Below, piece by piece: positions 2,441 to 17,374 of a DNA stretch of 22,773 bases. The stretch comes from a virus. Each line of letters begins with the position of its first letter. The first letter of the stretch is position 1. The notes under the pieces are model-generated. The model was given only the letters and a program-made list of their open reading frames with translations. It did not search any database and was not told where the DNA came from. Position numbers and translations under genes: made by a program. The DNA lies in the UHGV virus genome UHGV-0256221; one strand, given 5' to 3'.

Positions 2441-3535
2441 TTAGTTCGCGTATTCCGGTTTCATGTCGTCGAGGGTGATACGGAACTGGTCATACAGTTC
2501 GTCGCCCAGGTGGCGGCGCGCCGCGGTAAGCGCTGATTCGGCCTTCGCAAACAGTTCTGCCGCGTCTGGTTCGCCGGGATTAGGCAGAGAGTTAATCGCC
2601 GCCTCGACTTTGTTGCGGTGATCCACCAGGTAGTAACGCTTAACGGCTTTGTTCTTCAGTTCGGTGAACAGTGCGGTACCCAGCAGCGCTTTCTGAGATT
2701 CGATATCCGCACGGATGGCTTTGGCCTGGTCGACGGAGCTGGCAGCTTCAATGCGATCACGAAGTTCGCCGGCTACATTGTCCGCGTTTGTTACCGATTG
2801 CTGATCGCAGCTGGCTGTAGTCACCGTCTCCCCAGTAATTTCGGTAACGCTCATTCGCTGTGGCGCTGGATTGATTTCCCGCTCTGGCTTGTCCTCAATC
2901 TCATCAGCGCTGTAAACGCCAAGAATTACATCTGGGCAATACAGTCGCGCCCAGCGCTTGACTGCGAGATATGCGAGTTGTTGACGGGGATCACTTGCCC
3001 AAAGTGTTGAGTTACGGACCTGAGCCTGAGATAGCATGAGCACCAACTCGCGTGGTTCATCCTCACCTTTCATAGTTGCCCATACTCGAATCCCAACGCC
3101 TGCTTCATCCTTTAAATCCCAGCCAGGGGCGATGTATTCATTCCCTTTGCCGCTGGTTTTCTTAATGAAGCGTCCAACGATATTTTCCCATTTCCCAAAC
3201 CAGTCATAATGAATACGGTCTTTCGTTGGGGACATGTTGGTAATAACCGCGTTGACCAACTGAGCCTCATACCCTAGGACTCCGCTATTGCCTACAATAT
3301 GAGTCTTCTGCGCGACTGCGAACGGGTCCATTCCCCAGCGGGCTGCCTGCATAACTACGGCCATACATGCGTCAGGCTTCTCGCGGAAATGACTCGGAAC
3401 GAATGCGCCGCTATTTGCCATCACGACTGATAATGTGCGCAGGCGGTCAAATAACTCGCCATTTGTTAAAATGGAGATGTTGTCGATCATTTGCGTCTTG
3501 TTTTCTGTGGTCGAAATTGCTGTAGACATGTTCAT
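2441..3535 (-). CDS. recT: RecT-family single-strand annealing recombinase
   Basis: 364 aa, recognised as RecT-like; immediately downstream of the recE-like gene with a 6-bp gap, as in Rac recE-recT. Confidence 0.8.
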   Translation of the reverse strand: MNMSTAISTTENKTQMIDNISILTNGELFDRLRTLSVVMANSGAFVPSHFREKPDACMAVVMQAARWGMDPFAVAQKTHIVGNSGVLGYEAQLVNAVITNMSPTKDRIHYDWFGKWENIVGRFIKKTSGKGNEYIAPGWDLKDEAGVGIRVWATMKGEDEPRELVLMLSQAQVRNSTLWASDPRQQLAYLAVKRWARLYCPDVILGVYSADEIEDKPEREINPAPQRMSVTEITGETVTTASCDQQSVTNADNVAGELRDRIEAASSVDQAKAIRADIESQKALLGTALFTELKNKAVKRYYLVDHRNKVEAAINSLPNPGEPDAAELFAKAESALTAARRHLGDELYDQFRITLDDMKPEYAN

Positions 3536-3541
3536 TTCCCC

Positions 3542-6500
3542 TTATGCCAAACGCAGCGCTTCAAGGCGGCGCATATCGAAATCATTCAGTTCGTCGGTGT
3601 AGTCGGCGGTGATCGGCGCTGGCCACTCACCCGTATCAAATCCGGTTGCGATGGCTCGCATGGCATTTCGATACTCGAGCATGCCCAGTTCCAGCAGTTC
3701 AGTGGACGCTTCAATAATGGCGATCCAGTGGTAGTTCTCGTCTTTGTTGACGAAAATCCAGAAGAACTGGTCAAGCGCTGCCGTCTCGCAGTACATGGCC
3801 GCGCTTAGGTGATAATCGCGGTCGATGATTTCGCGGTGTAACTTGGCGCGCAGACCTTCCTGTTTGATGTTCCACATGCTGATGGTTTTCAGGTCGGCAC
3901 CGATGCGCACACCGTCCAGGTCGATTTCCAGATCCGGACGTACACGGACTTCCAGCCCGGTTTCGTCGTCGAACCCGAAATAACTCACTTCTACAGCGCG
4001 GTTCGGGTGCGTTAGCAGCTTGCCGGCGGTCGGGTGCTGGAGCAGAGCTTTCTGGATATTCAGCGCGGTACTTAGCTGCTGGCGGGTGACCAGTACTTTT
4101 CCTTCAGGATTCTCGCGCCATGCATCGATAAGTTCGTCGGCAAATACAGCACCCGGGTTTACTGCCTTCACGGCCTGAATCAGATCTGCCTTCGTGCCGG
4201 ATACTTTCAGTGGCTGCGGCTTCTGCGCTTCCTGCGCGACCAGATCAGGATTGATGATTGCCAGTTGCTCAAGCAGCGAGTCGCGGCTACCGCTGGTTTT
4301 TACCGGCGCAGGCTTATTGGATTCTTCCTCTACCAAATCGGCGTTGATGACCGCCAGTTGCTCCAACAGCGCGTCGCGGCTGCCGCTGGTTTTCACTTGA
4401 GCGGGCAGGGTAGCGTTGTACTCTTTGATGCATGCTTTCATGGCAGCAGCAGTGAAGTTTTTTTCGTCGCCAACAATCCGCTTAAACTCAGCAGGCAATT
4501 CGAGATACGCCAGACCGATCGCGTCTTTATCGCCGCCTAAAGGCACTTGAGCGGGCAGGGTAGCGTTGTGCGCTTCCAGTAGCGCTTTGATATCGTCAGC
4601 AGATAGCGGCGCTGGCAGGCTAGTGTTGTACTCTTCCAGTAACGCTTTGATATCTTCGACTGACAGCAGCGCCTGCAGGCTGGCATTGTATTCATCGATA
4701 AACGCGCGGATCGTTGCGGTTGTCGTGAATGCGCCTTCCGGGATTTCTGGCTCAACGCTGAATTCAGCATCCAGTTGCTCAGGTTGCAGCGCCAGTGCAT
4801 GTACCAGGTTCCCCATATCCAGAACCGGAGAGCGTTCCTTCGTGATGGTCTTCTCAACATGGCGCGCATTGAAGTACATCAGGCTCACGCGAGCATCTTT
4901 AACCTGGGTGCTGCTGATACCGTTGGCGGCGTGATATACCTCGTTTGGTAAACCTTCATAACGGCCAGGCTCGAAGAATGCCGGGTACTCGATGGCTGGT
5001 TCTGCCTGCAGGTCTTCCGGCTCGCTGGCTGTTTCCATCGGCACTAATTCCTGTGCTGTGTCGTCTGCCGGAATCGGCGCTTCAGTTGTCAGAGTTTCCT
5101 GCTTGTTGGTGTCATGCTCCTGCGTGTCCAGTTCTTCTTTCAAACCGGATTCCATCGCTGCATATGTTGCATCACCCATCACAGCACCGCAGTCCTGGCA
5201 ATGCCCGCCACCAATAGCGCCGCATCCGGTACACACGGTTTCCGTTACGGTATCTGCCTGCGAATCATCTTCCACAGTACCTTCGCCTGCTGGTAACGCA
5301 GCGCTATTTTCGGCTTGGGGTTGCTCAGTCGTTTCCATCTGGCCATTGTTGGTGGTCTCGCTTTTGTTGCCGTAAAGTTTTGAGTTCGCCATCAAACCCT
5401 CAACCGAAAAGATGCCACCGCCAACGTTGGTGACTTCAGGCTGTTTAGTAGATGTCAGGTCTTCGCGCACCCACTTCGGATCTTCCGGGTCGCTGATTCC
5501 ATCAACAAATTCCCCGCGCTCCGCTGCGAGTGTGTCACTGATTTCCTTATCCCAGCTTTGTGCAGGGTTATGGCGAGCAGCCTTCAATGTTTCATCAGAA
5601 GGTTTTTCGTGGTTGCTTTCTGTCAGGTTAGCGTTGATGTATCCACTGAGACGGCCGGGATACTGGTAATGCTCTGGGTGGCACTCCCTGATCAGCGCGA
5701 AAATGGCTGCGCGGGAGTAATCGAGTATTCCGGCACGTTTGCGAAGAGCTGCTGACCATTCTTTGAAAGGGCTTTCTTTTTTGCTGACGATCTCTTTCGC
5801 CCGACGATAAACACCACCAGGAATGTCGTAGATGTTAAAGTCCATCGGTAGTGTGGCGAGTGCAATTTCAATGTCTAATGAGTCCAGCGTGTGGGTTAAC
5901 TCAGGGTTACGGTCGGTTTTATTGCCGCCGCCTGCGTTTGTGCCTACGTCAGTTCGTGTAACCGACTGTTTATCCAGCGTCGCCTTATTATGTTTTGCGA
6001 ACCACTTCGCCGTTACATCGTCGCGGGAAACGCGATCGCTCTGATGTGTATTGATCCATTCTGCAAAGAAGGTGATCAGGTCATTGAGCATCGGAGCTTT
6101 ACCGTCCACCGGCCAGATTGATTTTGTGGCCGTAAACAGGTCGGCCAGTGTTTCCGGGAACACGTGTTCAATAGGGCGAGTTTTGAAATCACGCGCGGAC
6201 AGCAATACGTTCTGTGCGTATGTTTCATCCATATCCAGCTCTACACGCGTAATCTCCTGCAACTGCTCAGTAGTCAGCGTATCGAAAAGACCGTACAGCC
6301 AGGTGCCGAGTACTTTTTTCTCATATGGAAATTTGCCGTAGGCGAACAGGTCAACAGCTTCCTTCTCTGTTTCTTGCGTAGTGGTTACTGCGTGCGCATC
6401 GGTAGACGCGGTGGCATCGGCGGCAGCCGCTGGTGTGCTTTCATTGTGAAATGCATCATCAGGCTTGCTGCCTGGCTTCAGTTGCCAGGTGCGCATGTCT

Positions 6501-6748
6501 TCCGCCAGCTCATAGCGTTCGCACCAGGTCAAATCAACGGTGCTTTCTTCCGGGAGGTCATTAAATACGGGAAAATCAGTGCGGATCGGCTTCTGATAAT
6601 CTTTACCGCGTCCGGTCTCGATATTCGCATCTTCCAGTTCAACATCGAGCTGGAGATTGGCGCGAGCTTCGGTTTTTGCCGTGAACCAGACGACTGCGTC
6701 TGGCTTGCCGGATTTCTGAGTGGCTTTAACCACGTAGAAGAATTCCAT
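3542..6748 (-). CDS. recE: RecE-like exonuclease VIII (large multidomain, C-terminal nuclease domain)
   Basis: 1068 aa; C-terminal region resembles the RecE PD-(D/E)xK nuclease domain; central acidic linker with tandem repeats and a Cys4 cluster; GAGGA RBS upstream of the ATG at 6748. Confidence 0.7.
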   Translation of the reverse strand: MEFFYVVKATQKSGKPDAVVWFTAKTEARANLQLDVELEDANIETGRGKDYQKPIRTDFPVFNDLPEESTVDLTWCERYELAEDMRTWQLKPGSKPDDAFHNESTPAAAADATASTDAHAVTTTQETEKEAVDLFAYGKFPYEKKVLGTWLYGLFDTLTTEQLQEITRVELDMDETYAQNVLLSARDFKTRPIEHVFPETLADLFTATKSIWPVDGKAPMLNDLITFFAEWINTHQSDRVSRDDVTAKWFAKHNKATLDKQSVTRTDVGTNAGGGNKTDRNPELTHTLDSLDIEIALATLPMDFNIYDIPGGVYRRAKEIVSKKESPFKEWSAALRKRAGILDYSRAAIFALIRECHPEHYQYPGRLSGYINANLTESNHEKPSDETLKAARHNPAQSWDKEISDTLAAERGEFVDGISDPEDPKWVREDLTSTKQPEVTNVGGGIFSVEGLMANSKLYGNKSETTNNGQMETTEQPQAENSAALPAGEGTVEDDSQADTVTETVCTGCGAIGGGHCQDCGAVMGDATYAAMESGLKEELDTQEHDTNKQETLTTEAPIPADDTAQELVPMETASEPEDLQAEPAIEYPAFFEPGRYEGLPNEVYHAANGISSTQVKDARVSLMYFNARHVEKTITKERSPVLDMGNLVHALALQPEQLDAEFSVEPEIPEGAFTTTATIRAFIDEYNASLQALLSVEDIKALLEEYNTSLPAPLSADDIKALLEAHNATLPAQVPLGGDKDAIGLAYLELPAEFKRIVGDEKNFTAAAMKACIKEYNATLPAQVKTSGSRDALLEQLAVINADLVEEESNKPAPVKTSGSRDSLLEQLAIINPDLVAQEAQKPQPLKVSGTKADLIQAVKAVNPGAVFADELIDAWRENPEGKVLVTRQQLSTALNIQKALLQHPTAGKLLTHPNRAVEVSYFGFDDETGLEVRVRPDLEIDLDGVRIGADLKTISMWNIKQEGLRAKLHREIIDRDYHLSAAMYCETAALDQFFWIFVNKDENYHWIAIIEASTELLELGMLEYRNAMRAIATGFDTGEWPAPITADYTDELNDFDMRRLEALRLA
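4240..4720. repeat. Degenerate in-frame tandem repeats (about 60 and 90 bp units) inside recE
   Basis: Near-identical DNA blocks such as gccagttgctc(a/c)a(g/a)cagcg(a/c)gtcgcggct(a/g)ccgctggtttt and cacttgagcgggcagggtagcgttgt occur twice or more; encode repeated LPAQV / SGSRD(A/S)LLEQLA(V/I)IN peptide units. Confidence 0.7.
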
Positions 6749-6879
6749 GTGAGATCCTCATTTTTGGATGTTAGAATCCCCGGGCCATTGATAGCGCCCA
6801 TTGGGTGTTCATTGGTTTTGTGTAATTTCCGGTGTAACTTTGGTCGGAAGCACCGGAGCGTTTCAGCATTGCGCTGGTT

Positions 6880-7377
6880 TTATAAATTTCTGGCGAATAA
6901 GCCGTGATTTGCTTCGCGGAAGTCTTTTATTGCTTCCGCTGCCTTTTCTAATTCAACAAAATTTCCTACCGTGTATCTTTTCCCATCAACGCGACAGATG
7001 GCTCTCCAGCGCTGCTTACCCTTGTGCCAGTACACGCCTTTCACTCCGCTTGTGTTGTTCTTCTGGAGTGACTTGTTGAAGTTGTTCTGCGAACAAGTTG
7101 CTTCGCGCAGATTCTTCAATCGGTTGTCAGAGCACTTCCCATTTACATGGTCAATCTGGTCTTCAGGCCATTTACCATGTACGTAGAACCAGGCCAGGCG
7201 GTGTGCGCGATACTTTTTCCCATCAATGATGATTCGAATGTATCCGCGTGAATCAAGATGACCTGCAACTTCACCTGCGGCAACGCGACCACGTTTTTCT
7301 AACCAGGTAAAATCACCTGTTTCCGGTGAGTAGCTGAGTAATTCTTTCAGGCGCTCAAGTGGTAACTTCTCGCTCAT
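6880..7377 (-). CDS. HNH endonuclease with AP2-like DNA-binding domain
   Basis: ORF 6880..7425; HNH-type motif (IDHVNGKCSDNRLKNLREAT) plus AP2-like segment (KGVYWHKGKQRWRA). Start refined to ATG at 7377 (MSEKLPLERL). Confidence 0.65.
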   Translation of the reverse strand: MSEKLPLERLKELLSYSPETGDFTWLEKRGRVAAGEVAGHLDSRGYIRIIIDGKKYRAHRLAWFYVHGKWPEDQIDHVNGKCSDNRLKNLREATCSQNNFNKSLQKNNTSGVKGVYWHKGKQRWRAICRVDGKRYTVGNFVELEKAAEAIKDFREANHGLFARNL

Positions 7378-7388
7378 ATCCGTCACCG

Positions 7389-7550
7389 TTAGCCTTCGTG
7401 AGCCATCTGGTCGAACGAAGCGCAACGTACTGAACAGTAATCACGTTGCTCGCGTTTCAACTGCGTGCCGTGGATAAAGAGCAGTTCGTTTTTAACTTCC
7501 TTCCCTTGCTTGATCGGCTTGCGGCAGTACGCGCATTTTTTCTCCTGCAT
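7389..7550 (-). CDS. Small zinc-ribbon protein (53 aa), not in the ORF track
   Basis: Hand translation: MQEKKCAYCRKPIKQGKEVKNELLFIHGTQLKREQRDYCSVRCASFDQMAHEG; CxxC ... CxxxC; GGAG RBS upstream; stop 12 bp before the HNH start. Position like Rac ydaE, homology unverified. Confidence 0.4.
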   Translation of the reverse strand: MQEKKCAYCRKPIKQGKEVKNELLFIHGTQLKREQRDYCSVRCASFDQMAHEG

Positions 7551-7561
7551 AACTCACTCCG

Positions 7562-7927
7562 TTAATGGCTAAGGCCATGTCCTAAACCGTTTAGATAAAC
7601 CTCAACCAGCAAATCTTTGGTGTAGGTACGTTCGATGCCACGGTGAAGATACAGGCGTCCGCGAGCGTTAGCTGATGCCGTCCAGGTTGAGTCTTTGTGT
7701 TTGACGAGCATCCCCGGCTGAACTGCGCCGCGGTTTACTGTCTGTGTACCGTAGTGCTGATGAACCATGATGTTCTCCACTATTGCTGAGTGAACTTCGC
7801 TGGTGGTGCCGTGGTGCTGATCTTCACAGTTGAGCGTTTTAACTCTGCAGTTCACCACCGCGAAACCCACTCTTATGTGCCTGTCTTTTATCCACTTCAG
7901 GCTCGGTGGTATGCTGGTAGTTCTCAC
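7562..7927 (-). CDS. Hypothetical protein, early-left operon
   Basis: 121-aa ORF with GTG start; true start may be the internal ATG (MVHQHYG...). No recognisable motif. Confidence 0.35.
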   Translation of the reverse strand: MRTTSIPPSLKWIKDRHIRVGFAVVNCRVKTLNCEDQHHGTTSEVHSAIVENIMVHQHYGTQTVNRGAVQPGMLVKHKDSTWTASANARGRLYLHRGIERTYTKDLLVEVYLNGLGHGLSH

Positions 7928-7947
7928 ACAGCCAGCAAGGAATAACT

Positions 7948-8241
7948 ATGAAATCAGTAACTAAGCCATGTCCTATTTGTGGTGAAGATTCTTTGTCTTT
8001 TAACCAGACAAATCAGTTGGTTAACATCAAAGTAAAACCACCAACTATTCGTGAAGTTCCATCAGTGGTTTACGTTTGCGATACTCACGGATGGTTTTCA
8101 CTTTCAGAACAGATAAACAGACTCGTCACATCTAATGACGACCCTGCGGCTAAGCAAAAACTGGCTGTTATTGTCAAAGAGCGATATGTGCCGGAACAGG
8201 ATCAGCCGTTAGCCCTGAAACCTATTGAGTCGCTCGCATAA
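7948..8241 (+). CDS. Zinc-ribbon protein encoded antisense to the early-left operon
   Basis: 97 aa; AAGGAA RBS 5 nt before ATG; CPICG ... VCDTHG (C-x2-C ... C-x2-H); candidate extended -10 (TGgTATGCT) about 35 bp upstream; 3' end overlaps the convergent N-like gene by 20 bp. Confidence 0.45.
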   Translation: MKSVTKPCPICGEDSLSFNQTNQLVNIKVKPPTIREVPSVVYVCDTHGWFSLSEQINRLVTSNDDPAAKQKLAVIVKERYVPEQDQPLALKPIESLA

Positions 8242-8491
8242 GGTCTTTTCGGCTCTCGCTGCGATATCCCAGGCGGTACATTTTCACGTAGGCTTTGCCG
8301 CGAGGAATGCCGCCTGTTTTGTTGAATCTCTGCTGGGCGCGGCGATGGTGTTTTGCTTCAGGGCTGTTTGAACCTTTCCCGCCATTCGATCGAGAACTTG
8401 GGAGTTGCATTGGCTTTTGGCGTGAATAGAATTTACGTGCCCAGCATGCTCCAAAGCCGATCATGCCTGTTTTCTTCGTATTACCTTTCAT
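8222..8491 (-). CDS. Small Arg/Lys-rich protein, first gene after the putative PL; N-like antiterminator candidate
   Basis: 89 aa, highly basic and low complexity; GAGGGG RBS; positional analogy to lambda N only. Confidence 0.3.
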   Translation of the reverse strand: MKGNTKKTGMIGFGACWARKFYSRQKPMQLPSSRSNGGKGSNSPEAKHHRRAQQRFNKTGGIPRGKAYVKMYRLGYRSESRKDLMRATQ

Positions 8492-8570
8492 CTCAATCCC
8501 CTCGTTTGCCCTTGTCGCCAGGCCAGCGGAACGTTTGAACTTGATGCGCTTAGTGTTTCTCGATGGGGTG

Positions 8571-8612
8571 ATGATAGCTAAGGCGATTTATTTTATCAAT
8601 CGCTTAAACGAT
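8571..8612 (-). promoter_or_regulatory. Putative PL promoter with OL operator half-sites
   Basis: Leftward strand: -35 TTGATA, 17-bp spacer, -10 TATCAT; overlaps ATAGC-N4-GCGAT and ATCGC-N4-ACGAT elements matching the OR repeats. Confidence 0.4.
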
Positions 8613-8936
8613 AATATTGTGATTTTGCCGATTATTATTTGATTTATAAAGTGATTTATTTTTGTATGAGATGCGTGATATGCTCAAAAAAACACCAGGC
8701 GGGGATATTGATATGGGTTTAGGAATGGATATGTCACGTGATGAGCTGCTGGAAGATCGCGCTGCTTTCATGGCTGGCGAGATTGGCGGTGCAGTTGTCG
8801 AGTAGATAATCAACGGTGTGGTGATAAGTCGAGATGCGATAGTAGATAGCTTGGAGACTAAGCGTCGCGCGGTTGGAAATGTGATTCACAAAGGAGTGTT
8901 GTGGGATGTCACTGCTATGGTGAGAAAAGGAATATG

Positions 8937-8970
8937 AAAACCGGCATAATGCCGGTTTACTTTGATTTTT
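8937..8970. terminator. Bidirectional intrinsic terminator at the end of the repressor-linked operon
   Basis: AAAACCGGC-ATAAT-GCCGGTTT hairpin with T-runs on both strands; overlaps the stop codon of the 210-aa gene. Confidence 0.55.
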
Positions 8971-9589
8971 CCTGTTGGTGAAGTACTCGTGGAGTAGTTG
9001 GTTCTTGAGGTAATTGGATGATAACAGGTTGCTGCGCTACTGGTTGAACTACGGGCGGATCACTCTTCAAGGCAGAAACAAGACTAGGTAATGCAACGAC
9101 AACCGCAATGATAACGCCAAAAATAGCAAGCCTAGTGGAAATACCTGATTGAATACCGCCAATCGCAGTGTTTATTCCTGTAATTTGCCCTTGTATACCT
9201 TCGAATTTGCCATTGATGGCTTTTACATCCCCATCAACGCTATCCATTTTCCCTTCAATTTTAGAAGAAATAGAGCTAATAGATGAATTGAGCGATGCCA
9301 GCTGAACGTTCATATTCTCGCGTGACAAAGCCATTTCAGCTCTAATCGAAGATGCAATGGACTCCATCTCCGCCTTATTGGCAGCTAGAAGTGCTTGCAT
9401 TTCTTCACGGCTAACTGATGACATTTCATTTCCCCCATCAGTTTCATTAGCTTCATCTGTTGATTTGATAAAGTTAGTATACATTTCTTCTTTATCGACG
9501 CGTAGTCTGTTTTGAACATTGGGGTACAGGTCATCTTTATCAATGCCAGAACCGCAGTCTGGGACAGCTTTGAGAGATGGGCCCATCAC
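8957..9589 (-). CDS. Tail-anchored coiled-coil membrane protein (candidate exclusion / abortive-infection effector)
   Basis: 210 aa; long heptad-like Ser/Ala/Glu-rich region, single C-terminal hydrophobic helix (LAIFGVIIAVVVALPSLVSAL), Pro/Gln-rich tail; start overlaps the upstream stop (ATGA); AT-rich. Confidence 0.55.
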   Translation of the reverse strand: MMGPSLKAVPDCGSGIDKDDLYPNVQNRLRVDKEEMYTNFIKSTDEANETDGGNEMSSVSREEMQALLAANKAEMESIASSIRAEMALSRENMNVQLASLNSSISSISSKIEGKMDSVDGDVKAINGKFEGIQGQITGINTAIGGIQSGISTRLAIFGVIIAVVVALPSLVSALKSDPPVVQPVAQQPVIIQLPQEPTTPRVLHQQEKSK

Positions 9590-9948
9590 TTCCCATCCTC
9601 TCCTTGATCTTCTTTTCTTTTATTAATCAGTGTCCTGGCTTTTTTATAAGAAAAAAGCAGTACATGTGCGCAGTGATCACACGTGATTCGAAATAGTGGC
9701 ATACCGCCAGGATATGTCACAGCACTATCAGTATCAGGTTTGTATTGTGCATAACTAAGTGTTTCGATCACATGATGTTTTGGCTGATTTTCTTCTACAT
9801 CAAGATCAAAGGCACCAACTACAGACCATGACTGGTTCCCGCAGATTTGGCAAGTTATTGGTTTTTTGAATGAATTTATGAAATCAATGAACTCATCCGC
9901 TGTGATAATCTCGGAGTTTGCTTCACTATGAAATAATTCCGATTTCAT
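9586..9948 (-). CDS. Zinc-ribbon protein, first gene downstream of the repressor gene
   Basis: ORF 9586..9972 (TTG); likely ATG at 9948 (MKSELFH) with AAGGA RBS; CQICG ... CDHCAH; only 44 bp after the repressor stop, no terminator between; AT-rich. Confidence 0.5.
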   Translation of the reverse strand: MKSELFHSEANSEIITADEFIDFINSFKKPITCQICGNQSWSVVGAFDLDVEENQPKHHVIETLSYAQYKPDTDSAVTYPGGMPLFRITCDHCAHVLLFSYKKARTLINKRKEDQGEDGK

Positions 9949-9992
9949 AATTATGATCCTTTTTTGGGCCAAAGTAGATAAAAAGTACAGTT

Positions 9993-10676
9993 TTACAATC
10001 GGTTATACTTTATTGATTCATGAATCAATGCCTTACCCATTACGTAGAGTTGATCCTGATTACCTTCGTTAATGTACCACTTCTCATAAGCTGAGTTATC
10101 AGACAAAACTGCCAACCTATCGCCCTGCATCTGCAAGCGCTTCACATGGAAATGTTGTCCGAAAACGAACGCATAAACACCGTCGACCTTGAAGTTTCTT
10201 ACAGAAATATCGAAAAACAATCTGTCACCAGACTGTATAGTTGGACACATGCTGTCGCCATCGACCGTCATTACTTTTACGTCTTCCTGAGAACGATTTC
10301 CGAAGAGTGAACGAGCGTGTTCGGTTGTGAACTCAATGGCGTGTAGAACCTCAACAAACTCAGAAATCATGAAAGAACCTGGCCCCGCGCTAAATGTCAG
10401 GTCAAGTACGTCAACTCTGAATATGTTTGAGTCTTTTTTTGTCGCGGTAATGGGAGGCGGTAGCTGGCCATCGTTACGCATCGGTCCGGATCCCGTGGAA
10501 AGCCATTCAGGGCGAACATTGAGAACAGAAGCTATCTCGACCGTTTTTCTTGAGCTTGATGCACCATTTAGCAGCTTGTTAACACTTGACTGTGCCATGC
10601 CAACTGCCTTAGCTAGCTTGCCCTGTGTATAACCCGCCTCATTCATTGCGCGATCTAATCGCTCAGAAAAACTCAT
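9993..10676 (-). CDS. CI-like repressor (N-terminal HTH, C-terminal S24 LexA-like peptidase domain)
   Basis: 227 aa; HTH (YTQGKLAKAVGMAQSSVNKLL); S24 motifs (GDSMCPT, KR); divergent from the cro-like gene across an operator-rich region. Confidence 0.85.
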   Translation of the reverse strand: MSFSERLDRAMNEAGYTQGKLAKAVGMAQSSVNKLLNGASSSRKTVEIASVLNVRPEWLSTGSGPMRNDGQLPPPITATKKDSNIFRVDVLDLTFSAGPGSFMISEFVEVLHAIEFTTEHARSLFGNRSQEDVKVMTVDGDSMCPTIQSGDRLFFDISVRNFKVDGVYAFVFGQHFHVKRLQMQGDRLAVLSDNSAYEKWYINEGNQDQLYVMGKALIHESIKYNRL

Positions 10677-10707
10677 TAAAGATACCCCCTAATAACCTTC
10701 ATAAATA

Positions 10708-10778
10708 TTATCGCCACAGCGATTAATAAGCAAAAAATCGCATAGGCGATTGACATTCGTTAAAGCGATAAACATAAT
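10708..10778. promoter_or_regulatory. OR operator cluster with PR (and presumed divergent PRM)
   Basis: Three ATCGC-N4-GCGAT elements (about 10710-10723, 10737-10750, weaker 10756-10769); PR -35 TTGACA (10750-10755), 17-bp spacer, -10 CATAAT (10773-10778). Confidence 0.6.
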
Positions 10779-10805
10779 CAACCTAAATTGATAGAAGGAG
10801 CGATT

Positions 10806-11036
10806 ATGAAAAACCCTGCTGTAGAAAAAGCGATTGCAATCGCCGGTAGTCAGAAAGAGCTAGCGAAGCGATGTGGTAAGGCCCAATCCACGGTCTGTGA
10901 CTGGTTAAATGGGAAAAAACAAATCTCCCCGATCCATGTTCCTGTTTTGGTAAAGGCAAGCGAAGGACAGATTCAAGCTCATGAATTCCGTCCCGACCTT
11001 CCTGAATTGTTTCCGCATCCACATTCAGCCGCCTGA
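10806..11036 (+). CDS. Cro-like / YdaS-family HTH regulator
   Basis: ORF 10788..11036; ATG at 10806 with GAAGGAG RBS; small HTH protein (SQKELAKRCGKAQSTVCDWLNG) transcribed from PR. Confidence 0.7.
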   Translation: MKNPAVEKAIAIAGSQKELAKRCGKAQSTVCDWLNGKKQISPIHVPVLVKASEGQIQAHEFRPDLPELFPHPHSAA

Positions 11037-11067
11037 CCGGCGGCGCTAACCATCAAGGGAAAGCACT

Positions 11068-11607
11068 ATGCAATCACTTACGTTTTACCAGGATACAGGA
11101 TTGCCGCAGCAGGCGGTGATAAATCGTGCTCAAGCGTGCAAGGGACCTAGCCATGAAGATATTCGTGATGCCGTTCGCTCATGGGCGGGTGTAGATGGTC
11201 AGGATGTCGTTTCTGCTCTGATCATCGAAGAGTACCAGGCGCAGGGTGGTGATGACATCACTTTCCCTGATGATCTCTGCCGAAAGCGCCAGAAGCTGTT
11301 TCGCTTCCTGGACAACCACTTCAACAGCGAGCGTTACCGCGAGAACGTCCGCCAGCTGACTCCGGCAATCCTCGCTGTCTTGCCGATTGTGTACCGCAGT
11401 CGCCTGCTGCCAGAAGACAACATCATGGCTCGCCTGGCACGTATGGAGAAAGAAACCAGCGAAGCAAAGATTGCCGTCGCAATGGATGCGCCACGCCATC
11501 AAAAGCTGAAAGAGTTGAGCGAGGGGATCGTGGAGATGTATCGCGTTGACCCTGGGTTAACCGGTCCACTGATGGAGATGGTGCAGATGATGCTGGGGGC
11601 TATATGA
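11068..11607 (+). CDS. YdaT-like protein in the CII position
   Basis: 179 aa directly after the cro-like gene; PAILAVLP segment resembles Rac YdaT (from memory). Confidence 0.5.
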   Translation: MQSLTFYQDTGLPQQAVINRAQACKGPSHEDIRDAVRSWAGVDGQDVVSALIIEEYQAQGGDDITFPDDLCRKRQKLFRFLDNHFNSERYRENVRQLTPAILAVLPIVYRSRLLPEDNIMARLARMEKETSEAKIAVAMDAPRHQKLKELSEGIVEMYRVDPGLTGPLMEMVQMMLGAI

Positions 11608-15661: not shown

Positions 15662-15816
15662 GAGAAATCATCGTTGATAACTTTGCCGGCGGCGGCGGGG
15701 CGAGCACGGGCATTGAGCTGGCGATCGGTCGTAGTGTGGATATTGCGATTAACCACGACCCGAACGCTGTTGCGATGCACACTACGAACCACCCGGATAC
15801 ACTGCACTACTGGTGA
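15658..15816 (+). CDS. C5-methyltransferase N-terminal segment (motif I), ends at an in-frame stop
   Basis: GTG at 15658; translation (M)REIIVDNFAGGGGASTG...NHPDTLHYW-stop carries the AdoMet motif I; the rest of the enzyme continues in another frame. Confidence 0.5.
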   Translation: MREIIVDNFAGGGGASTGIELAIGRSVDIAINHDPNAVAMHTTNHPDTLHYW

Positions 15817-17374
15817 GACCTTCGAGGCTTTCTGCGGCATGCTATCCGGTGGTATTCCTGCCGGTCATCCGGCGCTGGCGGAGTGCTGCGAGTTCCTGGG
15901 TATTACTGCCGACGGCGAACTGGCGCAGCAACTGGTGGCCGGGCTGGGTTACGCTGTTGATCATCGTGAGCTGCGCGCCTGCGACTTTGGCGCACCGACC
16001 ATCAGGAAGCGTTTCTTCATGGTAATGCGTTGCGATGGTATGCCGGTGACCTGGCCGGACCCGACCCACGGCGACCCGAAATCTCCAGCTGTGCAGAGTG
16101 GAAAGTTGGCGCCATGGCGTACAGCTGCGGAGTGTATCGACTGGACCATTCCGGCACCGTCGATATTCGACCGCAAAAAGCCACTGGCTGAAAATACGCT
16201 CAAACGCATCGCTCGTGGCATCCAGCGGTTTGTGATCGAGAGCGCGTCGCCGTTCATCGTCAAGTGCAACCACACGACGACCAAAGGGAAATACGACTGT
16301 TTCCGTGGGCAGGCGCTGAGAGAGCCTCTGCAGACCATTACGAAAACCCACGGCTACGCGTTAGCCGTTCCACACCTGACAAAGTTCCGTACTGGCGCAA
16401 CCGGGCAGCCCGTTACCGAACCTGTGCCCACTGTCACAGCTGGGACGTCGGTGCGCCCGGGCGGCAATGGTCATGCTCTTGGGTTGGTTGAGGCGGCGAT
16501 CACTCCGTTCCTGGCTGGCAATGGGGGCAGTGAATATCAGGCGAAGCCGCGCCCACTAAATAAACCCGCTCACACTATTCTGAAGCAATCGCGCAGTTGC
16601 CTGGTGGCTCCGGTTATTGCCCGGCAGTTTGGTGCCAGTATCGGCCACCGGGCAGACGAACCGAGCGCAACTATCACCGCGGGCGGTGGCGGTAAATCAC
16701 AGCTGGTGACGCCAACGCTGATTCAGATGGGTTATGGCGAACGTCCAGGGCAAGAGCCGCGTGTGCTGAAACTTGATAGCCCGCTTGGCACGGTCACCGC
16801 TGGCGGTAATAAATTTGCGGTTGCCGCTGCACATCTCATTAAACATTACGGCGGGAATTACCAGGGCGCCGGAGTGGGGATGGATGAGCCGATGCATTCT
16901 GTGACCACCGTCGATCACCATGCTGTGGTTGCTTCTCACCTGGTTAAATTGCGCGGAACCTGCCGGGATGGACAACGCACCGACGCGCCAATGCCGACTG
17001 TCACGGCTGGTGGCCTGCATGTAGGGAACGTTGAAACTCATCTTGCCGTAGATGAGTACGACGAAGAACGCGCGCAACAAACGCTGGCGTTCCTGCGCAA
17101 ATACTGTGGTGAGGATTGTACCGGGTTGGTGGTGATCGATGGCGTGACGTATCGCATTGTTGATATTGGTATGCGCATGTTACAGCCGCGCGAACTGTAC
17201 CGGGCGCAGGGCTTCCCGGACTGGTACATCATCGACCAGGACTACCGGGGCAAGAAGTACGCGAAGGATAAACAGGTTGCCCGCTGCGGTAACGCGGTGC
17301 CACCGCCGTTCGCTGAAGCGCTGGTGCGTGCTAATTTGCCGGAACTATGCCAATCGAAACAAATAGCGGCTTAG
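15674..17374 (+). CDS. DNA (cytosine-5)-methyltransferase-like protein, main body in shifted frame; no canonical PCQ seen
   Basis: 566-aa ORF (TTG start is an over-extension) with motif VIII-like LRACDFGAPTIRKRFF, five P-x-x-T-V-T-A-G-G repeats, C-terminal motif IX/X-like QPRELYRAQGFPDWY and CGNAVPPPFAEAL. Confidence 0.55.
   Translation: MITLPAAAGRARALSWRSVVVWILRLTTTRTLLRCTLRTTRIHCTTGETFEAFCGMLSGGIPAGHPALAECCEFLGITADGELAQQLVAGLGYAVDHRELRACDFGAPTIRKRFFMVMRCDGMPVTWPDPTHGDPKSPAVQSGKLAPWRTAAECIDWTIPAPSIFDRKKPLAENTLKRIARGIQRFVIESASPFIVKCNHTTTKGKYDCFRGQALREPLQTITKTHGYALAVPHLTKFRTGATGQPVTEPVPTVTAGTSVRPGGNGHALGLVEAAITPFLAGNGGSEYQAKPRPLNKPAHTILKQSRSCLVAPVIARQFGASIGHRADEPSATITAGGGGKSQLVTPTLIQMGYGERPGQEPRVLKLDSPLGTVTAGGNKFAVAAAHLIKHYGGNYQGAGVGMDEPMHSVTTVDHHAVVASHLVKLRGTCRDGQRTDAPMPTVTAGGLHVGNVETHLAVDEYDEERAQQTLAFLRKYCGEDCTGLVVIDGVTYRIVDIGMRMLQPRELYRAQGFPDWYIIDQDYRGKKYAKDKQVARCGNAVPPPFAEALVRANLPELCQSKQIAA

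What the first reader, a model, noticed from the sequence alone, without database searches (positions are those of the whole stretch)
6880..7377. HNH-AP2 endonuclease gene immediately upstream of recE
HNH endonucleases with AP2 DNA-binding domains are frequently mobile homing-type insertions in phage genomes. Its placement between the small zinc-ribbon gene and recE may mark a mosaic junction.
Basis: partly seen in the sequence, partly recalled or inferred. Interest (0 to 1): 0.25.

Follow-up and report, generated by a model that had tools for sequence, protein, structure and literature searches.

The report
Mobile HNH-AP2 endonuclease gene in prophage
A small, intact nuclease gene of a well-known selfish ("homing") type sits as an optional 0.5-kb cassette between two genes of a lambda-like prophage, and related prophages show it present, absent or recently copied in, so it is a real but ordinary example of a known kind of mobile gene.

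Summary
Window 6880-7377 (- strand) is an intact 165-aa ORF with an N-terminal I-HmuI-like HNH_3 nuclease domain and a C-terminal AP2 DNA-binding domain. It lies 11 nt after the ydaE zinc-ribbon gene and 131 nt before recE, in the early-left operon of a Rac/lambda-like prophage.

- **Polymorphic slot:** the ydaE-recE slot has three states: empty, HNH, or a 95-aa RacC-like gene. Only 3 of 5426 complete E. coli genomes carry an HNH of this lineage, and about 46 of the 60 listed junctions are empty.
- **Clean indel:** HNH+ and empty alleles can have 99.5-100% identical flanks.
- **Discordant cassette:** the HNH gene is 100% identical in backbones whose ydaE is only 68.5% identical.
- **Cassette transfer:** E. 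coli OW1E2 is a clean three-way mosaic. It has an empty-type backbone on both sides and a 618-646 bp donor tract holding the HNH.
- **Breakpoint in the window:** the window itself switches ancestry at the ydaE stop codon.
- **Intact gene:** the catalytic residues are present and dN/dS is about 0.05.

Endonuclease-driven homing is inferred, not shown. This is a new member of a known kind and of low interest.

The parts
6880..7377 (-). Free-standing HNH-AP2 endonuclease gene (165 aa), intact
   Evidence: ORF; Pfam HNH_3 and AP2; PHROG 99 at 4.6e-72; dN/dS 0.05-0.07 against other alleles
7081..7212 (-). HNH_3 (His-Me finger, 'HNN' subset 2) catalytic domain, residues 56-99. D76, H77 and N98 align with I-HmuI D74, H75 and N96
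   Evidence: The roles of the I-HmuI residues come from my own knowledge of Shen et al. 2004
6901..7050 (-). AP2-type DNA-binding domain, residues 110-159 (three strands plus a helix in the model)
   Evidence: Pfam AP2 at 30.3 bits, below the cut-off; profile hits to WRI1, TEM1 and ERF AP2 domains; fold
7378..7388 (-). 11-nt spacer CGGTGACGGAT between the ydaE stop and the HNH ATG, with a weak Shine-Dalgarno-like GGTGA. The first 2 nt (CG, 7387-7388) are shared with empty alleles
   Evidence: Read directly from the sequence
6858..7386 (-). Cassette-specific DNA (529 nt) that replaces 27 nt (TAAAACCCGCGCAAGGCGGGATCTACG) of the empty alleles. No target-site duplication and no terminal inverted repeats
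   Evidence: Alignments; repeat scan
6863..6877 (-). Small hairpin at the 3' end of the cassette (CCAGCGCAATGCTGA). Empty and RacC-type alleles have their own hairpin here, with a compensatory A-U to C-G change
7382..7392 (.). Mosaic breakpoint in the window: ancestry switches from OW1E2-type (kil, ydaE) to L010-type (HNH)
   Evidence: 168 A / 1 B sites upstream, 102 B / 2 A sites downstream
7389..7550 (-). ydaE (53-aa zinc-ribbon protein), the upstream flank. Its last ~40 nt are conserved across otherwise diverged alleles
6749..6857 (-). Conserved ~108-nt leader upstream of recE, the downstream flank and the right-hand recombination substrate
3542..6748 (-). recE (exonuclease VIII family, 1068 aa), the downstream neighbour. 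recT follows at 2441-3535

Best explanation
This is a free-standing homing endonuclease gene of the HNH-AP2 (I-HmuI-like, 'HNN-AP2') family. It occupies an optional intergenic slot between ydaE and recE in the early-left operon of a Rac/lambda-like prophage.

Shown:
- The gene is intact, keeps its catalytic residues and is under strong purifying selection.
- It is present in a small minority of otherwise near-identical junctions.
- It has moved as a discrete ~0.6-kb cassette between diverged prophage backbones, leaving short conversion tracts on either side.

Inferred:
- After induction or infection the gene is co-transcribed with kil-ydaE-recE-recT.
- The AP2 domain and the N-terminal region dock the protein on the HNH-less junction of a related phage or prophage. 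That junction is the conserved ydaE 3' end plus the GC-rich CCCGCGCAAGGCGGG hairpin.
- The HNH domain nicks or cuts there.
- Recombinational repair, by RecET or host functions, copies the cassette from the HNH+ genome.
- HNH+ alleles are protected because the site is split and its hairpin sequence is altered (CAGC..GCTG instead of CCGC..GCGG).
For: Domains and fold. The conserved boxes HRLAW, WP, DH, DNR and NLRE match the HNN-AP2 class described in PMC2248197. D76, H77 and N98 are near-invariant in 86 homologues and align to I-HmuI D74, H75 and N96.

Polymorphism.

Same slot in all HNH+ loci, across four different ydaE alleles.

Discordant identities:
- L001 vs L004: HNH 497/497 identical, but ydaE 68.5% and recE 77.7%.
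- Window vs L010: HNH 98.4%, but ydaE 72.8%.
- Window vs L001: ydaE 100%, but HNH 78.7%.

Three-way mosaic of OW1E2, where R marks sites matching the empty recipient type and D marks sites matching the donor type:
- kil 3' + ydaE: 82 R / 0 D.
- Last 12 nt of ydaE through the HNH to 96 nt of the intergenic region: 0 R / 28 D, plus the indel.
- Rest of the intergenic region + recE 1-760: 300 R / 1 D.

Other support:
- No TSD or inverted repeats, and no intron RNA.
- dN/dS 0.05-0.07 with dS 1.1-2.4.
- The family is widespread and often multi-copy in phages: 3617 phage records, 6143 places.
- HEGs at boundaries of genetic exchange are a described pattern (PMC10448857).
- I-HmuI-type enzymes are site-specific nicking homing endonucleases with an N-terminal catalytic domain and a C-terminal DNA-binding domain (PMC3428280).
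Against: - No cleavage activity or target site has been measured, so the target is a guess from position.
- The cassette is flanked by unusually conserved sequence: the ydaE 3' end and the 108-nt recE leader. Ordinary homologous recombination between lambdoid genomes could move any cassette in this slot without a nuclease, and the RacC-like gene occupies the same slot.
- HNH alleles are as diverged as their flanks (dS > 1). The lineage is therefore old in this slot, and strong purifying selection could equally reflect a function useful to the phage.
- The single-sequence AP2 Pfam score is just under the gathering cut-off.
- I-HmuI itself cuts both intron-plus and intron-minus DNA, so self-immunity need not apply.
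Confidence: 0.7

Rival explanations
1. Passive accessory cassette ('moron') with a phage-beneficial nuclease function. The gene is shuffled among lambdoid prophages only by ordinary homologous recombination at the conserved ydaE 3' end and the recE leader. Its product serves the phage, for example by nicking competing phage, satellite or host DNA, rather than promoting its own spread.
For: - The slot also holds an unrelated 95-aa RacC-like gene with the same boundaries.
- The flanks are conserved enough to act as recombination substrates.
- dN/dS is about 0.05 over deep divergence.
- The next-closest relatives (55% identity) sit in satellite/PICI-like islands. HEG-derived domains are used in phage-satellite conflicts (PMC10448857).
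Against: - No PADLOC defence-family match.
- The gene is rare (3 of ~67 comparable E. coli junctions), which is not what a generally useful gene would show.
- The identical cassette occurs in two diverged backbones with very short conversion tracts, the classic HEG signature.
- The domain architecture is that of characterised homing nucleases.
Confidence: 0.2
2. A bona fide member of the recombination (Rec) module. The HNH nuclease would work with RecE/RecT to initiate or process recombination intermediates, as proposed for tightly packed HNH genes in some lambdoid Rec modules.
For: The gene is immediately adjacent to, and co-oriented with, recE-recT. PMC12315714 lists HNH nucleases as a fourth nuclease type in lambdoid Rec modules.
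Against: - The same recE-recT modules occur far more often without it.
- RecE already supplies the module's nuclease.
- The Rec-module HNH named in that paper (ES18 gp47) belongs to a different subfamily: HNH_3 + zf-His_Me_endon, no AP2, 39% identity over only 57 aa.
- That paper itself warns that HNH mobility makes position a poor guide to function.
Confidence: 0.07
3. A decaying relic of a past insertion, or a packaging-type HNH like HK97 gp74, with no current site-specific activity.
For: HNH-AP2 genes often degenerate after fixation (PMC2248197).
Against: - The ORF is full length in all eight loci, the catalytic residues are intact and dN/dS is about 0.05.
- The gene is not near the terminase genes. 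It lacks the CxxC zinc sites typical of packaging HNH proteins and matches HNH_3, not the packaging-type family.
Confidence: 0.03

Closest known systems
I-HmuI / I-HmuII / I-BasI (HNH 'subset 2' nicking homing endonucleases of Bacillus phages; PDB 1U3E)
   Same: Both have an N-terminal HNH_3-type His-Me finger without zinc-binding cysteines. The D-H...N...N catalytic residues align, I-HmuI is the best structural match, and both follow a two-domain plan of a nuclease plus a C-terminal DNA-binding module.
   Different: Those enzymes are encoded inside group I introns of DNA polymerase genes and use a helix-turn-helix-type C-terminal domain. This one is free-standing in an intergenic slot and uses an AP2 domain. 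Sequence identity is only ~23% over 100 columns.
HNN-AP2 free-standing endonuclease genes of lytic phages (Xanthomonas phages Xp10/OP1/Xop411, T5, T1, RB-type; PHROG 99), and the HNH-AP2 HEG family of Magnani et al. 2004
   Same: Same architecture and conserved boxes: HRLAW, WP, DH, DNR, NLRE and an AP2 domain. Strong PHROG 99 match. Up to ~53% identity to phage copies. Free-standing, with variable presence.
   Different: Those are mostly multi-copy in virulent phages at varied positions. This lineage (>=83% identity within the clade, <=56% to everything else) is single-copy. In every case found it sits in one fixed slot of temperate Rac/lambda-like prophages.
Free-standing HEGs of T4-like phages (segA-G, mobA-E) and 'HEG islands' in ICP1 (Barth, Dunham & Seed 2023)
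   Same: An intergenic, ORF-sized indel between conserved genes, with co-conversion of short flanks. The gene sits at a boundary of genetic exchange (PMC10448857).
   Different: The seg genes are GIY-YIG. The mob genes are HNH but lack AP2. The ICP1 IPA-HNH domains are too divergent for the HNH_3 profile, whereas this one matches it well.
E. coli RefSeq protein WP_024192363.1 'HNH endonuclease' (strains OW1E2, KMi029, NCTC 13148)
   Same: Same clade, same slot, same length; 83% amino-acid identity to the window protein.
   Different: A different allele: 78.7% DNA identity, with dS about 1.7. It is annotated by name only, and I found no functional study.

Membership tests
HNH / His-Me finger nucleases, Pfam HNH_3 (I-HmuI-like, 'HNN' subset 2) | Profile match above the curated threshold | tested here: met
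   HNH_3 at 52.8 bits against a cut-off of 24.8, E=3e-14; PHROG 99 at 4.6e-72
HNH / His-Me finger nucleases, Pfam HNH_3 (I-HmuI-like, 'HNN' subset 2) | Catalytic Asp-His general base and metal-binding Asn residues present | tested here: met
   D76, H77, N85, N89 and N98 are near-invariant in 86 homologues. D76, H77 and N98 align with I-HmuI D74, H75 and N96
HNH / His-Me finger nucleases, Pfam HNH_3 (I-HmuI-like, 'HNN' subset 2) | Beta-beta-alpha-metal fold | tested here: met
   The AF2 model (pLDDT 93.3) has strands 74-77 and 90-93 and helix 95-100. The Foldseek top hit is 1u3e_M with probability 1.00 and 100 aligned columns. This is a prediction, not an experiment
HNH / His-Me finger nucleases, Pfam HNH_3 (I-HmuI-like, 'HNN' subset 2) | Metal-dependent DNA nicking or cleavage | not testable with these tools
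   Needs biochemistry
AP2/ERF DNA-binding domain | Pfam AP2 above the gathering score | tested here: inconclusive
   30.3 bits against 33.3, E=5.4e-7. The precomputed hits for close relatives are marked 'weak' in some and unmarked in P0003
AP2/ERF DNA-binding domain | Homology to solved AP2 domains, and the three-stranded sheet plus helix fold | tested here: met
   Profile against PDB: WRI1 4.1e-8, TEM1 6.1e-5, ERF096 and ERF1. The model has strands 115-118, 123-130 and 133-140 and helix 143-161. Foldseek gives TEM1, ERF1 and ERF96 at probability 0.96-1.0
Free-standing homing endonuclease gene (HEG) | Presence/absence polymorphism at one fixed site with conserved flanks | tested here: met
Free-standing homing endonuclease gene (HEG) | Gene history discordant with the flanks; transfer as a discrete cassette with short co-conversion tracts | tested here: met
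Free-standing homing endonuclease gene (HEG) | Not a transposon, intron or intein: no TSD or terminal inverted repeats, no transposase, intergenic, no intron RNA | tested here: met
   repeats; no Rfam match; intergenic; its own start and stop codons
Free-standing homing endonuclease gene (HEG) | The enzyme cleaves the HEG-less allele near the insertion site, and this drives biased inheritance | not testable with these tools
   Requires a cleavage assay and genetic crosses
Phage packaging HNH (HK97 gp74-like) | Adjacent to the terminase or cos, with a CxxC zinc-binding HNH motif | tested here: not met
   The gene lies in the early-left operon between ydaE and recE. It has no CxxC pairs in the HNH region (sequence) and matches HNH_3, not the packaging-type family

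The most novel reading that the evidence does not exclude
The nuclease and the adjacent RecE/RecT genes act as a functional unit. The HNH-AP2 enzyme would break the ydaE-recE junction of co-resident or superinfecting lambdoid genomes. The element's own RecET would then process that break. The cassette would therefore not only home but drive exchange of the whole Rec-module region, or disable competitors in the way intron endonucleases mediate interference between co-infecting phages. That would make it an active engine of lambdoid mosaicism rather than a passenger.
Probability: 0.1. Interest if true: 0.5.

Novelty: new member of a known kind. Interest (0 to 1): 0.22.

Why it matters
The finding gives a clean natural example, in temperate enterobacterial prophages, of an HNH-AP2 homing-type gene tied to one intergenic slot. 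The donor, the recipient and the product of a transfer can all be identified: NCTC13148-type, AR_0119-type and OW1E2. It supports the view that nuclease genes sit at boundaries of genetic exchange in phages, and it explains a mosaic breakpoint in this window. It also offers an easily testable target-site hypothesis. It does not change what is known about HNH-AP2 endonucleases.

Tried and rejected
- **Genome-contig scan with the HNH protein:** returned only distant hits (41-45% identity, in Stenotrophomonas and MAGs), so it gave no extra junctions.
- **Single-sequence phmmer against PDB:** no hit. A profile was needed.
- **Rfam on 6600-8300:** nothing, so there is no intron or known RNA.
- **PADLOC and NCBIfam for the HNH:** no family.
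- **Phage megablast:** no phage record carries this HNH. By tblastn, phage relatives are all below 60% identity.
- **HNH-less counterpart of the window's own backbone:** I looked for one to repeat the three-way test on both sides. None of the fetched loci has a close recE 5' region (76-82% identity at best), so only the left breakpoint of the window could be mapped.
- **ES18 Rec-module HNH as a possible homologue:** it belongs to a different subfamily.
- **Packaging-HNH and decaying-relic readings:** rejected on position, motif and dN/dS.
- **Magnani et al. 2004:** not held in the library, so it is cited only through PMC10448857 and PMC2248197.

Full report
**1. What is there**

On the - strand an ORF runs from the ATG at 7377 to the TAA at 6880-6882 (165 aa). 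It sits in a run of co-oriented genes:
- kil (7562-7768; PHROG 294)
- ydaE (7389-7550; 53-aa zinc ribbon; PHROG 1520, NCBIfam YdaE_coli)
- this ORF
- recE (3542-6748; Exonuc_VIII + DUF3799)
- recT (2441-3535)

A cI-like repressor (9993-10676), a cro/YdaS-like gene, YdaT and O/P replication genes lie to the right. An integrase (121-1434) and an excisionase lie to the left. The window is therefore the left half of a Rac/lambda-like prophage, and the ORF lies in its early-left operon. The best E. coli match to the whole window covers only 52% at 96% identity. The exact HNH protein was found on only two short metagenomic contigs with the same neighbours.

**2. The domain call**

- Pfam gives HNH_3 (E=3e-14, above the cut-off) for residues 56-99.
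- Pfam gives AP2 (E=5.4e-7, 30.3 bits against a gathering score of 33.3) for residues 110-159.
- PHROG 99 'HNH endonuclease' scores 4.6e-72.
- A profile built from 86 homologues hits the solved HNH homing endonuclease I-HmuI (1U3E, E=1.5e-6) with the N-terminal half. The C-terminal half hits the plant AP2 domains WRI1 (4e-8), TEM1 (6e-5), ERF096 and ERF1.
- The AlphaFold model is confident (pLDDT 93.3). Foldseek against the PDB ranks I-HmuI first and AP2 domains next.
- D76, H77 and N98 align with I-HmuI D74, H75 and N96 and are near-invariant in the family.
- The boxes HRLAW, WP, DH, DNR and NLRE, and the lack of CxxC zinc sites, match the 'HNN-AP2' class described for Xanthomonas, T5 and T1 phages (PMC2248197).

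**3. Presence/absence at the junction**

- *Counts.* In 5426 complete E. coli genomes, an HNH gene of this lineage occurs in only three: OW1E2, KMi029 and NCTC 13148. All three copies are 100% identical in DNA. A query spanning an empty junction finds 67 genomes with this recE-leader type. Of the 60 listed, about 46 have ydaE directly followed by the recE leader, 3 carry the HNH and 11 break at the slot.
- *Three discrete states.* Measured from a conserved ydaE motif to a fixed point just past the recE ATG, the slot is 170-171 nt (empty), 545 nt (a 95-aa RacC-like gene, annotated 'DNA breaking-rejoining protein') or 672-674 nt (HNH).
- *Boundaries.* Alignments show that 529 nt in the window (6858-7386) replace 27 nt (TAAAACCCGCGCAAGGCGGGATCTACG) of the empty alleles. 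The junction begins 2 nt after the ydaE stop codon and ends just before the conserved TCCGGTG...CACCGGA element of the recE leader.
- *No transposon features.* There are no target-site duplications or terminal inverted repeats, and Rfam finds no intron or other RNA family.

**4. Evidence that the cassette moves**

Segment identities:

| Comparison | HNH | Flanks |
|---|---|---|
| OW1E2 vs NCTC 13148 | 497/497 identical | ydaE 68.5%, recE 5' end 77.7% |
| Window vs metagenomic locus L010 | 98.4% | ydaE 72.8%, upstream gene unrelated |
| Window vs OW1E2 | 78.7% | ydaE 100% |
| NCTC 13148 (HNH+) vs TBU0218 (empty) | present vs absent | 99.5-100% |

The strongest result is a three-way test. It uses sites where an empty allele (AR_0119, L016) and an HNH+ allele (NCTC 13148, L004) differ, and asks which of the two OW1E2 matches:
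- kil 3' + ydaE: empty type at 82 of 82 sites.
- From 12 nt before the ydaE stop, through the HNH, to 96 nt into the intergenic region: HNH+ type at 28 of 28 sites, plus the indel.
- Rest of the leader and the first 760 nt of recE: empty type at 300 of 301 sites.

OW1E2 is therefore an AR_0119-like backbone that received a 618-646 bp tract containing the HNH from an NCTC 13148-like donor. This is exactly the footprint expected of homing with short co-conversion tracts.

The window itself shows the same kind of breakpoint. kil-ydaE is OW1E2-type at 168 of 169 informative sites and spacer+HNH is L010-type at 102 of 104. The switch lies within 7382-7392, at the ydaE stop codon. The right-hand boundary of the window's tract could not be mapped, because no fetched locus has a close relative of its recE 5' end.

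**5. State of the gene**

All eight HNH+ loci carry full-length ORFs of 165-167 aa. Pairwise dN/dS between the four alleles is 0.05-0.07 with dS of 1.1-2.4. The lineage is therefore old, has stayed in this slot, and is under strong purifying selection.

The clade is sharply bounded. Members are 83% or more identical to each other, and the next relatives drop to 56% or less. Those next relatives lie in a different context, satellite/PICI-like islands of the form int-AlpA-AntA-...-primase. Across phages the family is very common and often multi-copy, with 3617 records and 6143 places.

**6. Mechanism**

*Shown:*
- domain architecture
- intact catalytic residues
- polymorphism at the slot
- discrete cassette transfer
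- a mosaic breakpoint

*Inferred from the family:* I-HmuI-type enzymes are site-specific nicking homing endonucleases with an N-terminal catalytic domain and a C-terminal DNA-binding domain (PMC3428280). HNH-AP2 genes are regarded as HEGs (PMC10448857). By analogy:
- The protein is made from the early-left transcript.
- It binds the HNH-less junction of a related genome.
- It nicks or cuts nearby.
- Recombinational repair copies the cassette in.

The likely target region is the conserved ydaE 3' end plus the GC-rich hairpin CCCGCGCAAGGCGGG. In HNH+ alleles this region is split, and the hairpin is replaced by CCAGCGCAATGCTG. That replacement includes a compensatory change that preserves the stem. 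This target assignment is speculation.

**7. Rivals**

- *Passive shuffling.* The slot is bounded by unusually conserved DNA and also hosts a RacC-like gene. Ordinary recombination could therefore shuffle the cassette passively, with the nuclease retained for another use such as competition or defence. PADLOC gives no support for a defence role, and the rarity of the gene argues against a general benefit. Sequence alone cannot exclude this reading (0.2).
- *Rec-module role.* PMC12315714 raises this for some lambdoid HNH genes. It is unlikely here because most identical Rec modules lack the gene, and because the ES18 example belongs to a different subfamily.
- *Packaging-HNH and decaying-relic readings.* Both are rejected.

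**8. Verdict**

This is a new, site-specific lineage of a well-known kind of selfish gene, already annotated 'HNH endonuclease' in RefSeq for its E. coli allele. It is a tidy example but not surprising. Interest is about 0.2.

Noticed in passing
window 6749-6857 (- strand), and the same region in L001-L018: The ~108-nt leader upstream of recE is more conserved (86-92% against the window, and near-identical among many loci) than the coding DNA on either side. RNAalifold predicts a 7-bp stem (TCCGGTG...CACCGGA) and an 8-bp stem (GGGATTCT / AGGATCTC) that would sequester the recE Shine-Dalgarno sequence. The stems are invariant, so there is no covariation support. There is no Rfam match.
   Followed up: partly
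L013 and L015 (E. coli 730V1, MSB1_9D); also phage HK225 (H41): The same ydaE-recE slot can hold a 95-aa RacC-like ORF (MEIVKIEMNLK...). RefSeq annotates it as a frameshifted 'DNA breaking-rejoining protein', and it has no Pfam hit. It carries its own terminal hairpin (GCCCACCGAAGTGGGC). The slot is therefore a three-state cassette site.
   Followed up: partly
L020-L027 (Enterobacteriaceae and Klebsiella genomes and metagenomes): The next-closest relatives of the HNH (P0009 and P0015, ~55% identity, HNH_3 only in the precomputed Pfam hits) lie in small integrase-AlpA-AntA-...-primase (DUF927/D5) islands that look like phage satellites (PICI-like). One locus (L022) has two HNH_3 genes.
   Followed up: partly
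window 15674-17374 (+): A 566-aa C5 cytosine DNA methyltransferase ORF. Its Pfam DNA_methylase match is split into two stretches, and its PHROG methyltransferase matches are also split, leaving a long middle segment. Out-of-frame HNH genes hidden inside phage methylases have been reported (PMC11855218), so the alternative frames here might be worth checking.
   Followed up: no
L010 1536-3461: In the metagenomic relative with the 98%-identical HNH, a 641-aa SIR2_2-domain gene (a defence-like accessory gene) sits next to the cI-like repressor. The window has two unknown-function ORFs at that position (8957-9589 and 9586-9972).
   Followed up: no
window 6500-11100: The terminator-like hairpin count is 12, against 4.2 +/- 2.1 expected from shuffles. 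The set includes a strong 9-bp stem at 8938-8958 between convergent ORFs.
   Followed up: no
window 7562-7927 (-): The mechanical ORF list gives kil as 121 aa from a GTG start. Homologues (68 aa, KilR) and the alignments indicate that the real start is the ATG at 7768.
   Followed up: yes
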